64,000 bases of DNA from Sminthopsis crassicaudata (taxonomy: Eukaryota): contig NC_133617.1 of assembly GCF_048593235.1 (NCBI RefSeq), forward strand, positions 70,020,937 to 70,084,936, in the 5' to 3' direction. Each line of letters begins with the position of its first letter. Positions within the stretch are counted from its first letter, which is position 1. The position numbers and the translations under genes were made by a program. Shown here one piece after another: positions 1-33,146 of this stretch. The notes beneath the pieces were generated by a model. That model saw only the letters and a list, made by a program, of their open reading frames with translations, had not been told where the DNA came from and did not search any database.

Positions 1-579
1 AAGAGGAATATAGTCCATTGAGATTTGTATGGAACCAGAGACTTGGATCCAGACCCACACTTGCTATAATCCCAGCAACTCTGTGATCCTTCTTTCCTTC
101 GGTAAGCTTCTGTTTTTGTTGTTTGGTCACGGGGTTTTCTTGGCTGGAGTAGTTGGTCATTTCCTTCTCCAACTCATTTTACATATGAGGAAACTGAGGC
201 AAACAGAGTTAAGTGACTAGCCAGGGCTCACAGCTACCAAGTGTCTGAAGCCAGATTTGAGATCAGCTAGACCAGTTTTCCTGATTCCAGGCCCAGCACT
301 CTATCCACTGTGCCATCCCCTCACCCGGCTTCAGTTTACTGTGCTATAAAATGAGTGGGTTTCACCAGTCAGTCTCAATGCCTCCAGATAATTTAGCACT
401 AAATCCTATACCCCCCTGAAATCACCTCACTCTGGTCCACAGTTCTCACTTCTAAAAGAAAGCTGATCTATATGGTCTTGAAGGTCCTCTGCAGCTCTGC
501 TATTGGGCTGTTGTAGAGACTGGCTACAGGTGGGGAGGGGGATCATGGAAACAAGGGCATGAAAGGGCTCTGCCCACAG

Positions 580-1892
580 GTGGCCGCAGCCAGCGCTTTT
601 GCCCAAACACTTCGGCGCTACACCTCCCTCAATCACTTGGCCCAGGCGGCCCGGGCTGTGCTTCAGAACACGGCCCAAATCAACCAGATGCTCAGCGACC
701 TCAATCGTGTTGACTTTGCTAATGTACAGGTACCAGCGGTGCCTAAGGAGAGCTGGGGCTCTCTGGGAGGGGAGGGTCCTGGGCATCTTGGTCCTGACCA
801 TCCTGCCTCCTGCCTCCAATTCCAGGGTTTCTGGGGATGGTGGGACGTGGTGTGGGGAGGAAACCCCTGGTGGGTTTGGGCTGCGCTTCCTCCCAAGCCA
901 CACTTCTCCGGCTCTGTGTCCCCAGGAGCAGGCCTCATGGGTATGCCGCTGCGAGGACCGTGTGGTGCAGCGGCTGGAGCAGGACTTCAAGGTGACTCTT
1001 CAGCAGCAGAACTCACTGGAGCAGTGGGCAGGCTGGCTGGATGGTGTGGTGAGCCAGGTGCTCAAGCCCTACCAGGGCAGTGCCAGCTTCCCCAAGGCTG
1101 CCAAACTCTTCCTTCTCAAGTGGTCTTTCTACAGGTGGGTGGTATCTGATGAATGGGGGTTGGGGGCAGCCTGGCTCAGCCCACCAACCCCAGGTCTGCC
1201 TTCTCTTCCTCCAGCTCCATGGTCATCCGGGACCTGACCCTGCGCAGTGCAGCTAGCTTTGGTTCATTCCACCTGATCCGCCTCTTGTATGATGAGTACA
1301 TGTACTACCTAATAGAGCACCGGGTGGCCCAGGCCAAGGGAGAGACACCCATCGCTGTCATGGGCGAGGTGAGTACAACAGGTAGATTGGGGAAGATTGG
1401 GAGGGAGGGAGGAGGGAAAAGGAAGCAGCCCACCCACCCTAACTGCTCCCCTGGGCCCACTCTCCCCTGTACAGTTTGCCAACCTGGCCAGTTCCCTGAA
1501 CCCCCTGGATCCTGACAAAGGTAGGAAGGGCTTCTCCCACCTCAGCTCCTCCTGGGGCTGGTGAGGACCTTTGGATACCTGGGTCCCCACCTCATTTGGG
1601 CACCAGATGTGGGGGCAGGGGTGGGCAAGGGGCCCAAGCATCCCAGCCCCATTGGTGAGGAGTGGGAGTGGGGAGGAGTTCCTGCCTAGAGCAATCCCTG
1701 ATCTCAGATCCCTCCATGAACCCAGATGAGGAGGAAGAAGAAGAGGAGGAGAGTGAAGATGAACTGCCCCAAGAGATCTCTCTCAACTCCAGTGAGTCGA
1801 CTGCCCTCAGCTCAGAGCCCTTGGAGCCCCCTGCCAAGCTGGCAAGGACGGATGGACGGGGCATCTTCGTGCAGGCCCTGCCCTCGAGCTAA
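580..1892 (+). CDS. RFX1: Regulatory factor X1, 3' part (dimerization domain and acidic C-terminus); upstream exons lie outside the window
   Basis: Exons 580-729, 926-1134, 1215-1368, 1475-1520, 1726-1892, all AG/GT bounded with consistent phases. They translate VAAASAFAQTLRRYTSLNHLAQAARAVLQN...EQASWVCRCED...SMVIRDLTLRSAASFGSFHLIRLLYDEY...FANLASSLNPLDPDKDEEEEEEEESEDELPQ...LFVQALPSS-like C-terminus (here GIFVQALPSS*), matching RFX1. Stop TAA at 1890-1892. Confidence 0.97.
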
Positions 1893-7600: not shown

Positions 7601-10600
7601 GCCACAAATTCCTTGGCTTTGGCAACAGCTGGCGAGGGCTCTGGAGGACGAGCAGGGGTGGCCTCTGGGCAGGGTCCTCGGGATGCTGGGGGATCCTCTC
7701 GGCTCGGGGGCCCAGGAGGGTCAGGTGGGGCTGGCGGATGGGTAGTTCGGTCATAGAGGATTTGGCAGAAACTGCTGTCACCTACAATCGGAGGATCCGA
7801 GGAAAGAGAAAGTTGAAGGAAAGGAAAGTGAATGCTCAGAACTTATAAAGGCAAATCAGCACTTTGGGTTAGAACCTGGGGCAAGCCATTTCTCTCTGTA
7901 AATGTAGAAGGCAGCCTTCAGTACATGAGAGCTAAGGCTCCTGTCTCTCTAATCTATGACTGAAGGGCAGGTTAGTCTCTTTCCCCTCTCTAGAATTCTC
8001 TCTCCTGTAGATAAGATTTACATCCAGAAAGTACTTTAGAGATTATGAATCAATGCTCCAAGGTAGTCAAGAAACACATACATTGAAGACAAGTCACTCT
8101 TATATCTTATCCTTTCACTTAGTCATGGTAAGGAAAGACTATCAAGAAGGGAAAAATATTTTCCACCCACTAGAGGATGGACATCAGCTATGTTGTCTAG
8201 GAATTATCATTCTAAAGAGATACTGGATGAGAAATCAAGCTACTTCCTTGTGATTGTACTTTTCAGAGCCTCAGTTTCCCCATTTGTAAAAAAAAAAAAG
8301 AGGTTGGATTCCCTGATTTTCAAAGTCCTTCCCACTCTCCACTATAAACCAGCAGGCCTGACCCCAGTGTTCCGATAAAGTATCTTTCAGCTCTGCAAGT
8401 GGCTAAGGGAGGGCCAGGAAGCCGGGCTAAAGTCTGGACTTGGGGTCATAAGCCTACCTGCTGAGCAGACAGAGACTGCACAGGCCACCAGGGAGTAACT
8501 GGTGTTGAGCAACACCACCTGGTCCTTTTTGAGCTGGAAGGCTGGCTGGAAGGTGGGGAAGGGATAGACCACCTGATACTTCGTATGCAGCATGAACCCG
8601 TGTCTCAGGCAATGGGCACTAGGGTCTCCTGAAACACACACAGAGCTGTAACAAATCCCACGGTATGTGCCAGTGACCCACTTCCACACAAGCTCCATGC
8701 CGCACACCTGAACAGACCTGTAACACACCCACTCCAAGACATGCCCAACCCAACACAAAATGAGGTCCCCATGCAACAAGCACCTGCCAACGCACAGGCA
8801 GCCCACAACTCCCCTGCTCCACACACAACACACACAAAATACAAGCATGCTCACAGCACGTGCCAGTGACACTTCCATGCCTATACTGCACCATCGGGGC
8901 ACAAACACCTAACGGTGAGAACCCTTCCCACTAAGTGGGAACTCATGTAACATGCAGCACTGCTGGTCCCTGTTCCCAGCCGGGGTCATGTGCAAGAGTC
9001 AAGCCCACCCCCACAGATCCACTCACCAGGATGGGCAAGGCTGGCATCTCGGCAACTAGGGCAGCGGTCTCTGGGTGGCATAGCCACAGTGCTAATGTAG
9101 ATGTCCCGGTGGTTCTCATCACTCATCATCATCATGTTCATTAGAATCCCATTGGCTGACCGGGTACTAAGGGGGCAGGGGGAAGGGGCTGAGCCTAAAT
9201 CAATCCCAATCCCCCCCCCTTTCTCCCCAGTGTTGACCCCCACCCTCTCATGTTCTCCACCCCATAGGCCCTCACTTGAAGCCAAAGACGATGACTTTGG
9301 AAGAGTCACTGGGCCACTCGCAAACAGTCAGATACAGGTCACTGTAAATCTCCTCGTCCTGGAAGAGCCGCACCTGCCTCACCTGTAGGCAGGATTGCAC
9401 AGGAACCAGGAATAGCATTAGTAATACAAGACCCTTTGCGATCACCTCATCCAACCCTCTCATCTCACAGAAAAGGAAACCAAGTCCCAAGGAGGGGGAG
9501 GAACTTGCAAAGACTCAAACCCAGGCTTCTTCCTTCTTGGCCCAATACAGAGTGAGAGCTGGGTGGGACTGACCCCTGCCCAGGGAAGAGGAAGGGTCAA
9601 ACAAGTGGCGAGGAGGCCCACGGAGGGGTTGCTCCAACCCCGCCTTCCTACCAGCTTCAACTTGCTGTGGACGTTGAATTCCCACCAATAGAGGTGGTAG
9701 ATATAGAAGGAGAAGTCATCGTCGCCGCTGTTGCTTGTATAGGAGAGGACATAGCGGCCACACTTGGAAAAGCCCAGGAAGATGTGCCTGCGGAGGGGGA
9801 GTATTCTGGTACCTGACAACGCACTAGTCATTCTCTTCCTCCCTCTACCCCTGCCCCCCCCCATTCTGATACCCATCTCCCCCATCCCATCCACCCCACA
9901 CTGTCCCGACTTAGCACACATCCAGAGCCCTGTCCCAACCTCACCCTGCACAAAGGAAGTCCTCGTCCACAATGCTCTTTAAAGATACGCAGACACGGGG
10001 CGGTAATTTGCGGAAGAGCCGAGGGGAGAGCTGCCCACTAATCTGGGGATGGGAAGAGGGGCAGGTCAGGCATTAAACTGCTTCTCTCCATTCCAGAGGC
10101 AGAGTCCATCCAAGGCTGCCCTGCTCCTAAATTTATACTCTACTCTTCCCTTCAATGAACTCCTTCTGATTCCCTTCACTGTTACCCCATTTCCCAATTT
10201 TCTTCTCTCTCTTCTTATAAGAAAAGTAGTGTAATCGTCTTGAGCCTAACTCACCTACAACCTTGAACATCAATTAGCCTTTCCTCCTTCCTATGCCTTT
10301 GCTCCTGTCATTCCTCTTTATCCATATCCTGCTCCTTTGGTGTTTCTCTTTCTAAGGAGGATGCTCATTTCCACTCTCTGAAGACAGACATCGAAGCTCA
10401 GAGTTCAGTCACTCAGTCCAACTTAGATCTGAAGTGGAAAGCTCTGGACATCATCTCTGACAAGAGGTCCTTGAGCTGTTTCTTAAAGACCCTCCAGAAA
10501 AGGGAAGCTACCTTCTCCTAAGACAGCCCATTTCCTTTTGGGAAAGCTCTCTTTGTGAAGAAATGTTTTCTTACATTAAACCTAAGACTGCCTCTCTCCA

Positions 10601-12547
10601 ACTCCTACCCACTGATCTTACTTCTGCCCTCTGGGACCATGTGGAACCAACCTCTGCCTTCTTCCACATGATGTCATCTTCAAATATTTGATTATCAAAT
10701 CCTTTTCTAGAGTGTCTTTTCTGGCCTAAGCATCCCCCTTTATGTTATTCTCAATTGTCTCCAGAATTAGCTTTTTTGGCTGTCATTTCACATCACTGAC
10801 TCATGTGAATCTTACAGTCATCAAATTCCCCAAAATCTTTCAAATAAGCTATTGACCAGCCATCTCTCCTTCAATATTGGCCTAATGAAGTTGGTCATTT
10901 GAACTAACATGAAAGACTTTGCATTTGTCCCTAATAAATTTCACCTAAATTGAATTAAGTCCACTATTCTAGCCTCCTGGAAAATCTTTTGGGATCATTT
11001 CATTTGTGTCAACTCTCCCCCCAAACTTCAGAACACTGATAATACTGATGAGCATGCCCTTTAATCCAAGTGAATGACAAAAACAACAACGCCACATCCC
11101 CACTCCTCAAACGCAGTGTTCAAGACCACCATTTTCCCATCCTTCAATATTCACTGCATGAAAAATTCCATTACACAAAGATTATACATATCTATATATA
11201 GGCATATAGTGTATAGGTATGAGCAAACACATATGCGCATCCTTCTGAGTTCAAATCTGGCCTCAGGCACTTACAAGCCGAGGCACCCTGTTTGCCTCAG
11301 TTTCTCCATCTGCCAAATAAGCTGGAGAAGGAAAATGGCAAACCACCCCAGAATCTTTGCCAAGAAAACCCCCAAGAGGGTCTTGAAGAGTCTAAACACG
11401 ACTTTAAAAAAAGCCTGAACAGCCATGCCTCCGTTTTCTCATTGGTTTAAATCATCTTTAAAGTCTCTTCCTCTCTACACCTGGCCCCTTCCCCAGCTGG
11501 GAGCGGGCTCACCCAAGTGTCCGGGAACGCAACGCTGGGAGCCTGAGTCTACAACTGCCAAGTTTCCTAGGTTTTCACCCTCTCCCGGGTCCCCAGGGAC
11601 AGAGACAATGTGAATGTGGGAGGGCATTATGGGTGAATAAGAGCCTGTGTGGGGCAGGCTAAATTAAAATAGAAAGGAATTAGACCAGTTCTCCATCTTC
11701 AGGAAGCTCAAGTCAAGGGGGAGACAAGATTCCTGCACATCCAACCTGAGGTTTTCACCCGCCCCTTCCTGTGCGGACACATGCCCCCCACGCCATCGCC
11801 ACCGACCTGGAACAGTCCCCTCTGCCAGAAGCCGGCCCCCCTCTCCAGCACGGCCGTCAGGTCCACGCCTCTTCCTCTGTGTCCCCCTTCCTAACGCCCA
11901 TGCCCGCTGGCCGCTCGCACCCAGTGCAGGGGCTTCTGCTCTGCAACGTGCTCTTCCCCATCACTTCTCTCCTCCGACGCTCTCGCTAAAAAGCGGCCTC
12001 CCCTCTCTTCGGCCACCCCGGAGAGCCCCTTCACCCCCACTCCTAGGCACCCCCTCTCCTCCGCCAGGTCTCCATCACCCCCTTCTCTGTCACTCCTCCC
12101 ATCAGCCTAGGCCTTCCTCCTGTGTAAAGCGCTCTCCTCCATCACCTTCTCCTCCGCTTCCGATGCTCGCGCCCTCACGACCCACCTCGCCGACCCCCAA
12201 AAGGCCTCCTCCTCCAGGCCCCAGCCCCCCACTCCCTTCTCGCCATAATCCCTTCCTTTTCCTCATCCTCCACCCCCAGCGCCCTCCCCTCTAGGCCCTT
12301 CCCCCCAGAATGCACACCCCCCCTGCCCCTCCCCCCCGACGCCCTCCCCTCTCCGGTTTTCCCCTCGGGCGCCCCCTCCCCCGCCCGATCCTCCCGGCCC
12401 CGGCCGGGCTCTCACCCTGACACGCTCCAGCTGCTTGAGGACATGTTCCCGCCGCCGCCCTCCGGCTCGCTTCCCTCCAAGGCCTCCGCCGCCTCCGCCG
12501 CCGCTCCCGGCCCCGCTGTTCCGCTCCGATTTCGAGCTGGGCGCCAT
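4685..12547 (-). CDS. DCAF15: DDB1- and CUL4-associated factor 15 (597 aa, 13 coding exons)
   Basis: Exons 12416-12547, 9945-10042, 9652-9787, 9276-9382, 9027-9166, 8458-8628, 7356-7781, 7164-7255, 6938-7066, 6408-6493, 5895-5999, 5700-5815, 4685-4740. Total 1794 nt, all GT-AG, phases consistent. Protein [19 protein letters not shown]...[18 protein letters not shown]...[26 protein letters not shown]...[18 protein letters not shown] matches DCAF15. Confidence 0.98.
11243..11405 (+). mobile_element. Mar1/MIR-type CORE-SINE in DCAF15 intron 1
   Basis: B-box-like GAGTTCAAATC, CORE (GCCTCAGTTTCTCCATCTG) and the Mar1-type tail GCTGGAGAAGGAAAATGGCAAACCAC...ATCTTTGCCAAGAAAACCCC. Boundaries approximate. 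Confidence 0.8.
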
Positions 12548-12900
12548 TTTCACCCCCTCCCTCCACTTCCGGAGCAACCGGCCCCGTCGCCCCACCCCCT
12601 CCGCCTCTTCATTGGCCCTATCCGAGGGATGCGGCGAGCCGGTTGGAGGGGAGTCGGACCTCAGAGCTTCTTCCCGCTCGACTTGTCCATCAAAGTCATC
12701 TCGAATGATGATTGGTAAATCTGGCGCCGCAGTCGCATTTCGGTAGGCCGCATGCGCTGCCAGTTCCATTGACTCCGCCTTCCCCTTGATATTAACCAAT
12801 CTATATGCAAGATATGTTCGGATCTCTAGAAGATAGCTCTTAGTCTATGGACAGTGGGCCTTGTCAATCTCATTATCGACACGCCCCCGTGAGGCCACTA
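11770..12900 (-). promoter_or_regulatory. DCAF15 CpG island / promoter
   Basis: CpG-dense region around exon 1. CCAAT boxes (ATTGG 12611-12615 and 12711-12715; CCAAT 12796-12800), NRF1-like GCATGCGC 12750-12757, YY1-like GCGCCATTTT over the start codon (12541-12550). Confidence 0.85.
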
Positions 12901-26620: not shown

Positions 26621-28004
26621 TGGACCCACACTTAACACCACATTAGTAGAGAAGATCAAAATGGGTCCATGATTTAGGCATAAAGAATGAGATCATAAAT
26701 AAATTAGAGGAACATAGGATAGTTTACCTCTCAGACTTGTGGAAGAGGAAAGAATTTGTGACCAAAGGAGAACTAGAGATCATTATTGATCACAAAATAG
26801 AAAATTTTGATTACATCAAACTAAAATTTTTCTGTACAAACAAAACTAATGCAAACAAGATTAGAAGGGAAGTAACAAATTGGGAAAACATTTTTACAGT
26901 TAAAAGTTCTGATAAAGGCCTCATCTCCAAAATATATAGAGAATTGACTTTAATGTATAAGAAATCAAGCCATTCTCCAATTGATAAATGGTCAAAGGAT
27001 ATGAACAGACAATTTTCAGATGATGAAATTGAAACTATTTCCACTCATATGAAAGAGTGTTCCAAATCACTATTGATCAGAGAAATGCAAATTAAGACAA
27101 CTCTGAGATACCACTACACACCTGTCAGATTGGCTAAGATGACAGGAACAAATAATGATGAATGTTGGAGGGGCTGTGGGAAAACTGGGACACTGATGCA
27201 TTGTTGGTGGAGTTGTGAAAGAATCCAGCCATTCTGGAGAGCAATCTGGAATTATGCCCCAAAAGTTATCAAACTGTACATATCCGTTGACCCAGCAGTG
27301 CTACTCCTGGGCTTATATCCCAAGGAAATACTAAAGAAGGGAAAGGGACCTGTATGTGCCAAAATGTTTGTGGCAGCTCTTTTTGTAGTGGCTAGAAGCT
27401 GGAAGATGAATGGATGTCCATCAATTGGAGAATGGTTGGGTAAATTATGGTATATGAATGTTATGGAATATTATTGTTCTGTAAGAAATGACCAAACAGG
27501 AGGAATACAGAGAGGCTTGGAGAGACTTACATCAACTGATGCTGAGTGAAACGAGCAGAACCAGAAGATCATTATACACTTCAACAATGATACTGTACAA
27601 GGATGCATGCTGATGGAAGTGGATATCTTCAACATAGAGAAGATCTAATCCAATTCCAATTGATCAATGATGGACAGAATCATCTACATCCAGAGAAGGA
27701 ACACTGGGAAATGAGTGTAAACTGTTAGCATCTTTTGTTTTTCTCCCCAAGTTATTTATACCTTCCTAATCCAATTCTTCCTTTGCAACAACAACAAAAT
27801 TCGGTTCTGCACATATATATTGTACCTAGGATATACAATAACATATTTAATATGTATGGGAATGCCTGCCATCTAGAGAGACAGGGAAGGAGGGGAAAAA
27901 TTCGGGAAAGAAAGGAGTACAAGGGATAATGTAAAAAAATTACCTATGCATATGTACTGTCAAAAAAAGGTTATAATTATAAAATTAATTTTAAAAATTT
28001 TAAA
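26621..28004 (+). mobile_element. 5'-truncated young L1 (1.38 kb) inserted into L2
   Basis: 14-bp TSD AATAAATTTCAGTG at 26607-26620 and 28005-28018. ORF 26737-27549 encodes the L1 ORF2 C-terminus with the Cys-rich motif CWRGCGKTGTLMHCWWSC. A-rich tail present. Confidence 0.96.
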
Positions 28005-28253
28005 AATAAATTTCAGTGACTACCTGTTTTTCCCAGACTCAAATGTCAGTTCTCTTCTGGGAATTTAAAGCTCTTCCCACAGCTAAGTAAGGAAATTCTC
28101 CTTTTATTACATATAGGAGTGGCTTACAGTATAAGGCTCAAAAATCTTTTGCTCCAGTTAGATAACTTAATAAAAGTTTATATTAGTGCTTATAGTAAAA
28201 TTTTAGTCTACAGTCTATTTCATTAAAGAGCCTGAACAGTTTCACATATTTAT

Positions 28254-28593
28254 TTATTTTTATTAATTTTATAATTATAATTTTTGACAGTACATATTCA
28301 TGAGTAATTTTTTTTACAACATTATCCCTTGTATTCATTTTTCCAAATTTTCCCCTCCCTTCCTCTACTCCCTCCCCTAGATGACAGGTAATCCCATATA
28401 TATTAAATGTGTTACAGTATAACCTAAATACAATATATGTGTGTAAAACCAAATTTCTTGTTGCATGGTAAGAATTGGATTCCGAAGGTATAAGTAACAT
28501 GGGTAGAAAGACAATAGTGCAAACAGTTTACATTCAATTCCCAGTGTTCCTTCTCTGGGTGTAGCTGTTTCTGTCCATCATTGATCAACTGGA
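28254..28593 (-). mobile_element. 5'-truncated L1 3' UTR insertion (340 bp)
   Basis: 16-bp TSD AGTTTCACATATTTAT at 28238-28253 and 28594-28609. Sequence is the reverse complement of the same type of L1 3' UTR seen at ~27650-28000. Confidence 0.9.
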
Positions 28594-29139
28594 AGTTTCA
28601 CATATTTATATAGTAAAAGAGCACTTTGCTGACTTTACTACCTTTCCAATCTTCCAATCATTTTCACTCCCTTCCATACAGTTTATGGTTCAATCATACT
28701 GGCCTACTTATTGGTCCTCCTGTGAAACACCTCCCTCTCCTCATTGTGCTTTAACCCGGGTTGTCTCTTCCACTCCCCACCCCCTAACGGCTAATCTGTC
28801 TTCCACTCTCTACTTCTTCTCCACCTCTTGGAATCTCTAATTTCCTTTGTGATTCAGCTCAGGCACCACCAACTAAATGAAGCCTTTCCTGACTCCAGTT
28901 TCTACCGCCCTCCAGCCTCAAACTACCTTGCATTCTTTTTGTATATATTCTATTTATACTTATGTAACCAGGGACCAGCCAATGAGAGCCCAGTCATATG
29001 AGCATATAAACAGCAGGCTTTACCAGATGAAATACTTAGTGTGGACTATGGAGAATACACCAGAATTATGTGACTTTTTCTTGTATACTTTCTGATGAAA
29101 GGAAAGGGACTGCCTAGTGAGCTGGAAGAGAACTTGCAA

Positions 29140-29383
29140 AATTAAAGGGAAGGAGGAGGAAGGGAAGGAGGGAGAGAAAGATGGGGAAGAGAGAGGTGGA
29201 ATGAGGGAGAGAGAGAGAAAGGGATGGACAGAGGCAGAGAGACAGAGTAGAGGGGGGAAGGGAGGGTGAGAGAGAGGAGGGAGAGACATGGAAGGAGGGA
29301 AGGAGAGAGAGGAGATTAGGAAAGATGGGGAGAGAGAGAGAGAGAGAGAGGAGAGAGACAGAGACAGAGAGAGAGATACAGAC
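29140..29383 (+). repeat. GA-rich polypurine / microsatellite tract
   Basis: Almost pure A/G with (GA)n and GAGACA units, directly abutting the provirus. Confidence 0.9.
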
Positions 29384-29847
29384 TGTAACGAGCTGTCGTC
29401 TCTAGAAGCTGCCGGATCGCTCTCTGGGAAGAGATCTGCTGTGTCTACTCAAATCTTTAAGACAGATTCTTCTTCCTGTAGTGAACCGTTGTCTCCAGGC
29501 AGTTGCTGTTAACTCTTGTCCTTAGAAGTGACTTCCCTTCCTGCAGAGAGCCCCGTCAGGCCAGATGTAATGCAAAGTCTTCTTCTTGAATCCTGGCTCT
29601 GAATCTCCTCCAGCTCTTATCCTTCTCCAGGCCGATCTGCTCTCTGCGCCCAGTGCTGTCTCTTTTTATCCTCCCAGATAATGGGCATGGGATAATGCAA
29701 GGGCTTCTGGGAAAAACCACCCCAGCCAATGAGCTTGCCCCCTCTATCAAGTCAACCTGAGTTCTCACCTTGTAATTGTCCAGAAAACCTGAATTCTCAC
29801 CTTGTCACCATCCAGACAACCTGAGTTCTCACTTAGTAATCCTAACA
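29384..29847 (-). repeat. Proviral 3' LTR (464 bp)
   Basis: TG...CA termini; direct repeat of 32482-32947; adjacent to the PPT. Confidence 0.96.
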
Positions 29848-29860
29848 TCTCCCCCTTTCT
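29848..29860 (-). other. Polypurine tract (AGAAAGGGGGAGA)
   Basis: Purine run immediately upstream of the 3' LTR on the minus strand. Confidence 0.92.
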
Positions 29861-30179
29861 TTTGATTTAGAACATAGGACAGTCATGACCTTGAAACATA
29901 AATCCATCAATATGGGAAGTATTACAGATAATTACATAAATGACCTTGAAACATAAATCCATCAATATGGGAAGTATTACAGATAATTACATGAATTACA
30001 TAAGCACATAGTAACATAGTAACATAACACATGCTAGAAGTATATAACATAATCATAAATTGAAAATTTATAAATGTCCATAAGTCCATTGTCCATTAGT
30101 CTCATCTTGTGTGAGGAAGTCCAATGATTCCTGCTGGTTTTTAAAGTTCTTTAACAGTCTTCTTATTATCCATGCTCTT

Positions 30180-30390
30180 TCAGTGTCAGATGTTTCTTAG
30201 ATCTTCTCCTTTATTTTGAGATCTTTCTCTTTTTCTGTCTCTCTCTGATGGACAAGGCGAATATGACTCGTTGGCACCCATCTGATTCCTTCTCCTGCTG
30301 AAGAAATACAAGCAAACCCTCTCTCCCAGGCAGTTAACCTATCTAATTTCCTTCTATTTACCACTTTCTAAATCTCTTCTCATCATCTGA
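30180..30390 (-). pseudogene. Degenerate retroviral integrase C-terminal remnant
   Basis: Reads QMMRRDLESGK*K.. then, after a frame change, ..RLTAWERGFACISSAGEGIRWVPTSHIRLV.., resembling the betaretroviral IN tail (W.D...G.WKGPD...WGRG.AC......WVP...R). Contains an in-frame stop and a frameshift. Confidence 0.7.
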
Positions 30391-30393
30391 CAA

Positions 30394-32223
30394 TTACATT
30401 GGAGTTGTTTGCACTGGACACAGCCCTATTGGTTTAAAAGGCCTGTATTCTCCCCAAGTGTAATCCATTTTTGCAATCTGATTGCCTTTTGGCTCACTTA
30501 TCAGGTAATCCCTTTCTGCCATGTGATTGCTTTTCTGCTGGTTGATCACATCAGAGTCCTGACCTTCTAAAGGCTCTTTGGGTATAACATCAGCTGCCAT
30601 CATGCCCCAAGTCTTTTTTGCCTGGGGCCCTGGACCTGGACCCCTCATCCCATTTCCCTGAATTATTCTACACTCTGATGCCCAATGGAGTCCTCTGTTG
30701 CATTTTGGACATGGGGTTTTAGGTCTTCTTTCACCCTGTCTTCTCACTGTATCTCCATACCTACACTGAGCTCTTAGATGTCCAATTTTTCCACATTGAA
30801 AACATCGCCGAGTTTCTCTAGAAGTCCCTTGCCAGGAGGGACCCTGTCTTTCCACATTCATCATTGTCCGGGTGTAAAAAGCATTTGTTCCCACTGTAGC
30901 ACAGTGTCTTATGATCTCCTCTAAAGGAGCATCTTTGTCTAATCCCCATATAATTCTTTTGCAAATCTCATTGGTATTTTCCTTAGCCAGATGTCTGGTC
31001 ATTATTTCTGTAGCTGAATTTTCTCCAATAGTTCTTTTGACAGCAGTTTGCAGACGTCCCACAAAATCTGCAAAAGGTTCATTGGGACCTTGCTGTATTT
31101 TAGTGAAAGCCTCTCCACGATCTTTCTGTCCAGGAAGGACACCCCAAGCTTTTATTGCAGCCTTAGCAATTTGTTCATATATTGTCATGGTATAATCAGT
31201 CTGTTCTGAATTCTCTCCATACCGACCTTCACCAGCCAAGTGCTCAAAAGTGAATTGTGTGTTAACTCCTATTTCCAAATTGCATCTGACTTGAATTTTA
31301 CATAATTCATGAAATTCCGAAAGCCATAATAAATTTTCTCCAGGTTCCAGGCATATCCTTGCTATGGATTTCCAATCATTCGGGGTTAGGACTTCATAAG
31401 ACAAACCATCTAGTAACATTTTGACATAAGCTGATGTAGCCCCATAAAGGGTACAACCTTTTTTCAAATCCTTAATTTTATTCAAATCTAAAGGTGCATA
31501 TCTTCTCCTTTTTTTACCTACAGAGTCAGTATTTTCAATCACAGGATATGCATGTATAAAATCACTTATATCCTGTCCTTCTCTCTTAGCTTTAACCAAT
31601 GCTTTTTCTAATCTTGTCATAGGCTTAGGCTTCTTCACAGGCAATTCTGTTTGTGTTTCTGCCTCTTCCCCTCTTTCTTCCTCCATCTCTGAAGGTGGGG
31701 TTGATGTGGGCCTGTCAATAATCTGTTCTCTAGGCAGGGTTGAAGCTTCTTCAAGAGAATCATACCATAATTCCTCATTTAAATCCTCTTGCTCTAGGGA
31801 AAGATCTTGATCTTTCCTTTTTTCCTCACACTTCCTCCTCTGTTCATTTTTAGAACTTTTCCTTTTCCTACAACTTGCTTGATAGTTTAAGGCTAATTGA
31901 ACTATGTTGTAGATATAAAATACTTCTGCAGAAATTGAACGAGGCCCATTTTTTGCTTGAAATTCTTTCATTTCATATCCCACTAGCTTCCATTTATCTA
32001 CATCTATCTTTTCTTCCTCTAAGAACCAAGGGGATGTGCGTCTTAATGCAGCCAAGAGTTTAGCAATCTGTACCCAGGTTACAAGTAAACTCTGCTCCTC
32101 AATTATGTTGATTATACTCTCTATAGTACCACTCCTGAATGGGGGTGGAGCTGAGGTTGCTTCTGGGGCTGGGGATGAGTCGGCTGAAGTCCAGGGATTG
32201 AATATAGCTAACATCTGCCCCAT
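30394..32223 (-). CDS. gag: Retroviral Gag polyprotein (609 aa), betaretrovirus-like
   Basis: Uninterrupted ORF. N-terminal MGQ myristoylation signal, beta-type matrix motif (SPWF...D..KWKLVG), major homology region IQQGPNEPFADFVGRL, two CCHC knuckles CFQCGKIGHLRAQC and CPKCNRGLHWASEC. Confidence 0.95.
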   Translation of the reverse strand: MGQMLAIFNPWTSADSSPAPEATSAPPPFRSGTIESIINIIEEQSLLVTWVQIAKLLAALRRTSPWFLEEEKIDVDKWKLVGYEMKEFQAKNGPRSISAEVFYIYNIVQLALNYQASCRKRKSSKNEQRRKCEEKRKDQDLSLEQEDLNEELWYDSLEEASTLPREQIIDRPTSTPPSEMEEERGEEAETQTELPVKKPKPMTRLEKALVKAKREGQDISDFIHAYPVIENTDSVGKKRRRYAPLDLNKIKDLKKGCTLYGATSAYVKMLLDGLSYEVLTPNDWKSIARICLEPGENLLWLSEFHELCKIQVRCNLEIGVNTQFTFEHLAGEGRYGENSEQTDYTMTIYEQIAKAAIKAWGVLPGQKDRGEAFTKIQQGPNEPFADFVGRLQTAVKRTIGENSATEIMTRHLAKENTNEICKRIIWGLDKDAPLEEIIRHCATVGTNAFYTRTMMNVERQGPSWQGTSRETRRCFQCGKIGHLRAQCRYGDTVRRQGERRPKTPCPKCNRGLHWASECRIIQGNGMRGPGPGPQAKKTWGMMAADVIPKEPLEGQDSDVINQQKSNHMAERDYLISEPKGNQIAKMDYTWGEYRPFKPIGLCPVQTTPM

Positions 32224-32391
32224 TTCAGCTATAAGAGATTCCTGGTTTAGCCCTTAACAAGTTAAGTTCCTTATTTATCTATTAGCACGCTCACTTAATC
32301 TTTAACAAAGTTTCCTCGTTACTCATGGTTCTGGGTCAGAGAGACTGAGATCTAGATCGGAAGCTTTTCCACTGGAATCAGGACTGTGTCT

Positions 32392-32409
32392 GTCCCTGTT
32401 CGGGCGCCA
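32392..32409 (-). other. Second primer-binding site, tRNA-Lys3 type (TGGCGCCCGAACAGGGAC)
   Basis: Perfect 18/18 match to the known Lys3 PBS (as used by HIV-1 and MMTV). Confidence 0.95.
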
Positions 32410-32460
32410 AAATGCGAAGGTCTGGTCTAGCTCCTCTTGTCAGGATAAGCAAAAGTCCTT

Positions 32461-32478
32461 GCCCCACGTTGGGCGCCA
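32461..32478 (-). other. First primer-binding site, tRNA-Lys1,2 type (TGGCGCCCAACGTGGGGC)
   Basis: Perfect 18/18 match to the known Lys1,2 PBS (as used by MPMV/SRV), 3 nt from the end of the 5' LTR. Confidence 0.95.
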
Positions 32479-32481
32479 AAT

Positions 32482-32947
32482 TGTAGCGAGCTGTCGTCTC
32501 CAGAAGCTGCCAGATCGCTCTCTGGGAAGAGATCTGCTGTGTCTACTCAAATCTTTCAGACAGATTCTTCTTCCTGTAGTGAACCGTTGTCTCCAGGCAG
32601 TTGCTGTTAACTCTTGTCCTTAGAAGTGACTTCCCTTCCTGCAGAGAGCCCCGTCAGGCCTGATGTAATGCAGAGAGTCTTCTTCTTGAATCCTGGCTCT
32701 GAATCTCCTCCAGCTCTTATCCTTCTCCAGGCCGATCTGCTCTCTGCGCCCAGTGCTGTCTCTTTTTATCCTCCCAGAGAATGGGCGTGGGATAATGCAA
32801 GGGCTTCTGGGAAGAACCACCCCAGCCAATGAGCTTGCCCCCTCTATCAAGTCAACCTGAGTTCTCACCTTGTAATTGTCCAGAAAACCTGAATTCTCAC
32901 CTTGTCACCATCCAGACAACCTGAGTTCTCACTTAGTAATCCTAACA
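32482..32947 (-). repeat. Proviral 5' LTR (466 bp)
   Basis: Direct repeat of 29384-29847. CCAAT box, TATA-like GATAAAAA on -, and ~32-bp U3 repeats (AACCTGA[G/A]TTCTCAC x3). Confidence 0.96.
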
Positions 32948-32953
32948 ACAGAC

Positions 32954-33146
32954 NNNNNNNNNNNNNNNNNNNNNNNNNNNNNNNNNNNNNNNNNNNNNNN
33001 NNNNNNNNNNNNNNNNNNNNNNNNNNNNNNNNNNNNNNNNNNNNNNNNNNNNNNNNNNNNNNNNNNNNNNNNNNNNNNNNNNNNNNNNNNNNNNNNNNNN
33101 NNNNNNNNNNNNNNNNNNNNNNNNNNNNNNNNNNNNNNNNNNNNNN
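32954..33146. other. Assembly gap (193 N)
   Basis: Run of N immediately after the proviral TSD. Confidence 1.

What the first reader, a model, noticed from the sequence alone, without database searches (positions are those of the whole stretch)
29384..32947. Gag-only non-autonomous betaretroviral element: intact gag, no pro/RT/env, decayed integrase tail
Seen: the internal region is only 2634 bp. A 609-codon gag with all hallmark motifs is open, while the only pol trace (30180-30390) already has a stop and a frameshift, and the LTRs differ by only about 2%. Inference: the IN tail probably decayed before this insertion while gag stayed open. That suggests a replicating defective lineage that supplies its own Gag in cis and borrows Pro/Pol from a helper, conceptually like MaLR or deleted IAP elements. 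An expressed Gag-only locus could also act as a transdominant restriction factor, as established for Fv1 and enJS56A1. Caveat: at about 1% post-insertion change, an open 1.8 kb ORF can survive by chance.
Basis: partly seen in the sequence, partly recalled or inferred. Interest (0 to 1): 0.7.

Follow-up and report, generated by a model that had tools for sequence, protein, structure and literature searches.

The report
Gag-only defective retroelement family in dunnart
This is one copy of a multi-copy, defective retrovirus-derived element of a dunnart-like marsupial that kept its whole shell-protein gene but lost its enzymes, so it must borrow them from intact relatives; it is a new variant of a known kind of genomic parasite.

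Summary
Observation confirmed: minus-strand provirus, LTRs of 466 and 464 bp (8 substitutions, one 2-nt indel), 6-bp target duplication, 2634-bp interior, open 609-codon gag, broken integrase tail. It derives from MEBrv 3, the env-less betaretrovirus clade amplified in dasyurids (PMC11334065). A roughly 3-kb deletion starts at the natural end of gag and joins it in frame to 17 integrase-derived codons. That junction is a family trait: 6 of 13 Sminthopsis crassicaudata Gag proteins in hand carry the same tail, namely all 6 that reach it. They lie on four chromosomes at 88-99% identity, and one also shares the integrase stop. So it is a replicating non-autonomous family, not a one-off deletion. 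New here: two matrix types on one capsid and two tandem primer-binding sites. Selection on Gag is unsettled: common frameshifts avoid gag (p about 0.005), but synonymous excess is not significant (10 of 29). A same-LTR helper was not shown. This copy has private changes at conserved capsid sites, which argues against a restriction-factor role. It works like mouse IAP 1Delta1 and plant TR-GAG. New variant of a known kind; interest 0.45.

The parts
32482..32947 (-). 5' LTR, 466 bp, TG...CA
32461..32478 (-). Primer-binding site A, 3 nt after the LTR; 18-mer of the tRNA-Lys1,2 type (tRNA assignment recalled)
   Evidence: the same 18-mer follows the LTR of the MEBrv 1 record (by eye)
32410..32460 (-). 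Spacer between the two primer sites; ends in CA plus 3 nt like an LTR end, possibly the relic U5 end of an earlier LTR (inference)
   Evidence: sequence; repeat D12; joint 32408-32479
32392..32409 (-). Primer-binding site B; 18-mer of the tRNA-Lys3 type (tRNA assignment recalled)
32224..32391 (-). Leader, presumed packaging region; folding no better than shuffles (z 0.67)
30394..32223 (-). gag, 609 codons, open: matrix 37-112, capsid 242-439, two CCHC knuckles 473-519, tail
31660..31690 (-). Recombination breakpoint near Gag residue 185: upstream matrix type differs between junction-bearing copies, downstream 90-100% alike
   Evidence: loose end at 31680 in run X14
30437..30547 (-). Remnant of the pro frame overlapping the gag 3' end, interrupted by a stop near 30495
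   Evidence: 43% over 37 residues to P0013, E 7e-9
30445..30448 (-). Deletion junction: natural gag end joined to the integrase C-terminal region; about 3.0 kb of pro/RT/RNase H/integrase missing relative to the MEBrv 3 record
   Evidence: by-eye comparison; natural Gag ends in P0007, P0031, P0037
30397..30447 (-). 17 integrase-derived codons read in frame as the Gag C-terminus
   Evidence: (by eye)
30197..30393 (-). Decayed integrase C-terminal tail: stop at about 30356-30354, frame break near 30345
   Evidence: loose ends at 30344
29864..30196 (-). 3' untranslated region, about 0.33 kb against about 1.1 kb in the MEBrv 3 record; holds a 55-bp tandem duplication (29885-29994); no env
29848..29863 (-). 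Polypurine tract
29384..29847 (-). 3' LTR, 464 bp
29378..29383 (.). 6-bp target-site duplication, left copy (right copy 32948-32953)

Best explanation
One integrated copy of a non-autonomous family derived from the dasyurid env-less betaretrovirus clade MEBrv 3. Shown: a single ancestral deletion removed pro, RT, RNase H and most of integrase, starting at the end of gag; descendants with that junction spread to several chromosomes, diverged into sub-lineages and exchanged their matrix region. This copy arrived by integrase (two LTRs, 6-bp duplication). Follows from retroviral biology: without protease, RT and integrase it must have been packaged with Gag-Pro-Pol made by an intact MEBrv 3 element. 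Inferred: its own full Gag (or the act of translating it) helps its RNA into mixed intracellular particles in cis, as reported for IAP 1Delta1, and this is why the frame stayed open through rounds of copying while the pro and integrase remnants decayed. After insertion each copy, this one included, drifts. Odds: replicating non-autonomous family 0.92; Gag kept because it helps in cis, given that, about 0.6.
For: Same integrase-derived tail in 6 of 13 S. crassicaudata Gag proteins in hand, all 6 that reach the junction, on 4 chromosome-length records. Identity among the 7 junction-bearing proteins over residues 270-605 is 88.0-99.1%, beyond the 1.7% LTR difference of this copy at the low end. 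P0003 (88%) runs through the junction to the same integrase stop. Contig 19 of run X18 bridges the junction with 5 differences in 198 nt. 89,846 and 48,252 contigs lie on the stretch in two DNA runs. Of 7 common indels, 6 frame-shifting ones lie in the 1270 non-coding bases and the one in gag is 6 nt (p 0.005). Variable columns among 5 close copies: 12 of 355 in matrix/capsid/nucleocapsid, 21 of 252 elsewhere, p 0.010. The break falls at the natural gag end. Integrase sequence without this copy's frame break shows as loose ends at 30344 in 4 of 4 runs. Intact gag-pro-pol MEBrv 3 with identical LTRs reported in the dunnart.
Against: Synonymous share of the 29 listed gag variant sites is 10 against 8.2 expected (p 0.29); segregating sites 7 of 21, capsid only 6 of 12 (p 0.09); only 40 of 279 sites were shown. 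Annotated proteins are biased to open frames, and 7 of the 13 end early or leave gag. The least variable region is the spacer (2 of 129), which structural constraint does not predict. No helper with this LTR or this Gag subfamily was seen: the closest Sminthopsis Gag of another subfamily is 55% identical and the published representative has another LTR (by eye). The junction was placed by eye against a quoll record. Transcription rests on runs whose RNA status is a guess; no protein evidence.
Confidence: 0.56

Rival explanations
1. Same non-autonomous family, but gag is a passenger: it is kept as RNA (packaging signals, size) or because a few young master copies happened to be open; all proteins come from the helper.
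For: No significant synonymous excess; one copy stays open by chance with probability 0.13-0.49; many mammalian non-autonomous ERVK families have no ORF at all (PMC10089650, PMC10924933, passages).
Against: Common frameshifts avoid gag; the frame is open across sub-lineages 88-99% alike and across two matrix types; the deletion spares gag to its last codons.
Confidence: 0.34
2. This locus is a host-kept, transdominant Gag restriction factor like Fv1 or enJS56A1.
For: Open full Gag behind an LTR; contigs 98-100% alike to this gag occur in two runs that may be RNA.
Against: One of many near-identical copies with both LTRs; residues 417 and 440 differ from all other aligned rows that cover them and from 87-100% of laid depth in the two DNA runs, and 417 lies in a capsid motif kept in HERV-K and the Mason-Pfizer-like structure hit. 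A defective Gag can still be transdominant, so this does not exclude it.
Confidence: 0.04
3. A one-off deletion after insertion of a full-length provirus, gag open by chance.
For: Chance survival of one open frame is 0.13-0.49.
Against: The same junction and integrase stop are in other loci and in a contig that differs from this copy.
Confidence: 0.02
4. The shared junction spread by segmental duplication or gene conversion between proviruses rather than by retrotransposition.
For: Mosaic Gag proteins could come from conversion; flanks of the other loci were not seen.
Against: This copy has its own target duplication; loci lie on four chromosomes and fall into sub-lineages.
Confidence: 0.04

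Closest known systems
MEBrv 3 (marsupial endogenous betaretrovirus 3; Harding et al. 2024, PMC11334065)
   Same: Dasyurid host, class II Gag, no env, LTR near 465 bp, matching Gag tail, pro-frame overlap, integrase C-terminus and 3' region (by eye); devil Gags of this kind 52-88% alike by region.
   Different: 3.6 kb against 7.3 kb; pro and pol deleted; different LTR sequence; two primer sites. The main text has 0 hits for 'non-autonomous' or 'nonautonomous' and its classification used copies over 6 kb.
Mouse IAP 1Delta1 (PMC6466679, PMC7411935; passages only)
   Same: Env-less class II parent; one internal deletion shared by an amplified subfamily; in-frame gag-pol fusion; needs enzymes in trans.
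   Different: 1Delta1 loses 1.9 kb including part of gag and needs Gag in trans; here gag is complete and the pol part is only 17 codons. The cis effect is shown for 1Delta1, only inferred here.
TR-GAG retrotransposons of plants (PMC8704663; passages only)
   Same: Two LTRs, a single full gag frame, no pol, mobilised by an autonomous relative.
   Different: Plant LTR retrotransposons (the Arabidopsis case is Copia); this is a retrovirus-derived element in a mammal.
ETn/MusD, bovine ERVK[2-1-LTR] D-type, recKoRV, deer-mouse mysTR derivatives (PMC6466679, PMC10924933, PMC10089650; passages only)
   Same: Defective class II (or KoRV) partners copied in trans by competent elements.
   Different: Those lack intact genes or swap the centre for foreign sequence; this keeps one complete gene and is a plain deletion.
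Fv1 and enJS56A1 (recalled)
   Same: Endogenous Gag that could co-assemble with and disturb related capsids.
   Different: Those are single loci with shown restriction; this is a multi-copy family with no sign of locus-specific conservation.

Membership tests
MEBrv 3 | Dasyurid host | tested here: met
   Closest named proteins are S. crassicaudata, 96% over the full length; all 20 holders are one organism
MEBrv 3 | Gag and pol sequence of the clade | tested here: met
   Gag N-terminus, Gag tail, pro overlap and integrase C-terminus match the published representative by eye; only 3 of the 8 records were looked at, in whole or part
MEBrv 3 | RT phylogeny | not testable with these tools
   RT is deleted from the element
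MEBrv 3 | No env frame | tested here: met
   No open frame of 60 codons or more on the minus strand between the integrase tail and the 3' LTR
MEBrv 3 | Intact gag, pro and pol, about 7.3 kb (autonomous form) | tested here: not met
   3564 bp; so a deletion derivative of MEBrv 3, not an autonomous member
IAP 1Delta1-like element | One deletion shared by an amplified subfamily | tested here: met
IAP 1Delta1-like element | Deletion removes part of gag and gives a long gag-pol fusion | tested here: not met
   gag complete, fusion only 17 codons
IAP 1Delta1-like element | Translation product acts in cis on mobility | not testable with these tools
   needs a cell assay; sequence signals mixed
TR-GAG | Two LTRs, primer site, polypurine tract, single full gag frame, no pol | tested here: met
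   (apart from the short integrase relic)
TR-GAG | Plant LTR retrotransposon origin | tested here: not met
   Betaretrovirus-like Gag; analogue, not member
Domesticated Gag restriction factor (Fv1, enJS56A1) | Single orthologous locus under purifying selection | tested here: inconclusive
   Multi-copy, private changes at conserved sites; orthologous alleles not seen
Domesticated Gag restriction factor (Fv1, enJS56A1) | Protein expressed and blocks related elements | not testable with these tools
   no proteomic or functional data
MaLR | Class III, ERV-L related | tested here: not met
   Class II Gag; MaLR class from PMC6466679 passage

The most novel reading that the evidence does not exclude
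A mammalian counterpart of plant TR-GAG: an amplified retroviral parasite under selection to make its own full-length Gag, which has changed matrix domain, LTR and primer tRNA by recombination to follow or switch helpers, and whose protease-less Gag could dilute helper particles and so set the pace of MEBrv 3 expansion in dunnarts.
Probability: 0.25. Interest if true: 0.68.

Novelty: new variant of a known kind. Interest (0 to 1): 0.45.

Why it matters
MEBrv 3 is the dominant endogenous retrovirus of dasyurids and has been proposed as a source of genome instability (PMC11334065). A short gag-only derivative below that survey's 6-kb classification cut-off could account for part of the amplification. 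With many natural copies sharing one junction, it offers a direct test of whether a defective ERV is selected to keep Gag in cis, a question so far resting mainly on IAP 1Delta1. It also warns that dunnart 'ERVK Gag-like' gene models are mobile-element copies, not domesticated genes.

Tried and rejected
No genome is held for this window, so copies could not be collected as DNA and no true dN/dS was computed. Searching for the helper's integrase with the 55-residue tail failed twice: 0 of 14 candidates, and 4 unrelated repetitive proteins, rejected. A search of shorter proteins with Gag 450-609 gave 5 hits, none with the junction tail. P0001 itself is not in the protein collection. No RNA holder is on record as RNA; X14 and X18 are guesses and DNA carry-over of a multi-copy element could give such contigs, so expression is not claimed. 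Summed contig depth is no copy number and was not used as one. X18 contig 18 and X4 contig 26 cross the junction by under 31 letters and were not counted. Runs X21-X24 hold none of the words, no proof of absence. Leader folding not better than shuffles. No Rfam match in 29000-33000; no tRNA gene in the window. Earlier-findings look-ups returned nothing. Literature: ten searches found no report of a gag-only MEBrv 3 family or of tandem primer sites in it; two 10-base motifs had 0 hits in the paper's supplement, a weak test as the file is broken into blocks of ten. Repeat libraries (Dfam, Repbase) and subscription journals were not searched, and may already hold this family as an unnamed internal sequence. 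No structure was predicted; it would not decide anything here.
Full report
Anatomy. The element lies on the minus strand. The 5' LTR is 32482-32947 and the 3' LTR 29384-29847; they differ by 8 substitutions in 464 columns and one 2-nt indel, and enclose 2634 bp. The same six bases flank both ends, the mark of integrase-mediated insertion; the right flank runs into an N gap at 32954. A polypurine tract precedes the 3' LTR. gag (32223-30394) is open for 609 codons and carries matrix, both capsid domains and two zinc knuckles; its best solved relatives are betaretroviral Gags. A Gag-Pro relative matches only gag and a 37-codon overlap of the pro frame, which has a stop. The integrase tail scores weakly and has a stop and a frame break. 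If the neutral rate is 2-4 x 10^-9 per site per year (assumed, from no call), the insertion is roughly 2-4 million years old.

Host and parent. The nearest named proteins are from Sminthopsis crassicaudata (96% over the full length) and then the Tasmanian devil. Harding et al. 2024 (PMC11334065; main text parts 1-5 of 7 read; supplement parts 1, 3, 4 of 12) describe MEBrv 3, an env-less betaretrovirus-like clade making up about two thirds of dasyurid ERVs, with intact gag-pro-pol copies and identical LTRs in the fat-tailed dunnart. By eye, the window matches their quoll representative in the Gag N-terminus and tail, the pro overlap, the integrase C-terminus and part of the 3' region, though not in the LTR.

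The junction. In the representative and in three devil proteins Gag ends at or within three residues after a DYN motif. The window Gag has the matching motif at residues 587-592 and then 17 more residues that resemble, in the same frame, the stretch just before the integrase C-terminal domain of the representative (by eye). So about 3.0 kb were lost from the end of gag to late integrase, the break lying near 30447.

The junction is a family trait. Of 13 S. crassicaudata Gag proteins in hand, 6 carry that tail (P0002, P0003, P0022, P0024, P0028, P0030). The other 7 stop before the junction, leave gag, or belong to another subfamily (P0005); none shows the natural end. The six sit on four chromosome-length records. 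With the window protein they are 88.0-99.1% identical over residues 270-605. P0003, the most distant, shifts frame near the end and reads on to the same integrase stop as the window, so that lesion too is older than this insertion. Laying four runs on 29848-32947 gave 89,846, 48,252, 785 and 326 contigs with all 30 bins covered; one contig of X18 bridges the junction by 45 and about 150 letters with 5 differences. Loose ends at 30344 in all four runs show integrase sequence that lacks this copy's frame break, as intact relatives would have.

Recombination. Residues 30-185 of the window Gag are 29-33% identical to P0030 and P0004, while residues 186-592 are 90-100% identical. The P0030 matrix groups with devil P0009 and the window matrix with P0005, P0008, P0010 and P0019, whereas all close dunnart capsids form one group (supports 97/95, 99/100 and 94/100). 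A loose end at 31680 in X14 fits the other matrix type. Since the capsid is nearer P0009 and P0006 (68-88%) than P0005, P0008 and P0010 (55-74%), the window arrangement is probably the recombinant one (inference). The leader has two complete 18-base primer sites 69 bases apart, of the Lys1,2 and Lys3 types (recalled). The spacer ends like an LTR, which suggests a new LTR and primer site were added upstream of the old ones (inference). A joint that skips the first site occurs in 2 contigs each of X1 and X4 with only 22 letters on the short side, a weak sign of single-site copies. How many copies have both sites was not measured.

Is Gag under selection? For: of 7 common indels, six frame-shifting ones lie outside gag and the one inside is 6 nt, p about 0.005 if placed at random (a post-hoc test that ignores homopolymers); variable columns among five close copies are 12 of 355 in matrix, capsid and nucleocapsid against 21 of 252 elsewhere (p 0.010); the deletion spares gag to its end while both overlapping or following remnants decayed. 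Against: 10 of 29 listed gag variant sites are synonymous against 8.2 expected (p 0.29), with 0 stops against 1.3 expected; segregating sites give 7 of 21, capsid 6 of 12 (p 0.09); only 40 of 279 sites were shown; annotated proteins are chosen for open frames; the spacer is the least variable region. One copy of this age stays open by chance with probability 0.13-0.49. The balance leans to selection on the frame but does not prove it.

This locus. Residues 417 and 440 differ from every other aligned row that covers them and from 87-100% of the laid depth in the two DNA runs; 417 lies in a capsid motif conserved in the two structure alignments. That fits drift after insertion rather than domestication. 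The element lies between genes: an RFX-domain gene and a leucine-rich-repeat gene flank the region. Contigs 98-100% alike to this gag occur in X14 and X18, but their RNA status is a guess, so expression is open.

Mechanism. Shown: LTR-bounded, integrase-inserted, shared deletion, multi-locus, recombinant. From retroviral biology: protease, RT and integrase must come in trans from intact MEBrv 3. Inferred: the element's own Gag binds its RNA and co-assembles with helper Gag-Pro-Pol in intracellular particles, giving a cis advantage as reported for IAP 1Delta1 (PMC6466679 and PMC7411935, passages); co-packaging would also explain the matrix and primer-site mosaics. Not shown: a helper with this LTR.

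Comparison and novelty. It is a deletion derivative of MEBrv 3, not an autonomous member. It works like IAP 1Delta1 but keeps all of gag, and has the layout of plant TR-GAG (PMC8704663, passages) without being one. Other mammalian defective ERVK partners read here lack intact genes (PMC10924933, PMC10089650; passages). Ten searches found no description of this family; the MEBrv paper does not use the term non-autonomous, and a devil LTR preprint does not mention MEBrv or dunnart (10.1101/2025.10.06.679394, passages; its supplements are closed). Repeat libraries were not searched. Verdict: real, a new variant of a known kind, interest 0.45.

Noticed in passing
window 32392-32478: Two complete tandem primer-binding sites of different tRNA-Lys types, 69 bases apart, the spacer ending like an LTR; suggests LTR and primer replacement.
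   Followed up: partly
P0004, P0029, P0030 (S. crassicaudata): A second matrix type on the same capsid; P0030 also has the junction tail, and has arginine in place of the glycine at position 2.
   Followed up: partly
window 29885-29994: Near-perfect 55-bp tandem duplication in the 3' untranslated region; the published MEBrv 3 record has a longer array of another unit there.
   Followed up: no
window 27654-28594: Large inverted repeat: arms of about 350 bp, 78-92% complementary, around a 240-bp centre; probably two opposed copies of a LINE or SINE end.
   Followed up: no
window 26650-27546: 299-codon open stretch on the + strand without a Pfam hit; reads like a decayed LINE-1 ORF2 piece (recalled).
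   Followed up: no
window 517-1146, 12266-12844, 35605-42018, 44947-45870: Host genes around the element: RFX BCD domain and leucine-rich repeats by Pfam; order fits RFX1, DCAF15, PODNL1, CC2D1A (names recalled). The provirus lies about 2.7 kb upstream of the first LRR-gene exon seen, pointing away from it.
   Followed up: partly
P0023, P0026, P0029: Annotated dunnart proteins that leave gag in capsid or nucleocapsid and go on in unrelated sequence; perhaps spliced or read-through models into host DNA.
   Followed up: no
PMC11334065 supplement, MEBrv 2 record, about 9700-11106: The record ends in an inverted MEBrv 3 3' fragment (by eye), so it is longer than the MEBrv 2 provirus itself.
   Followed up: no
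window 29150-29380: The provirus is inserted at the end of a purine-rich simple repeat.
   Followed up: no
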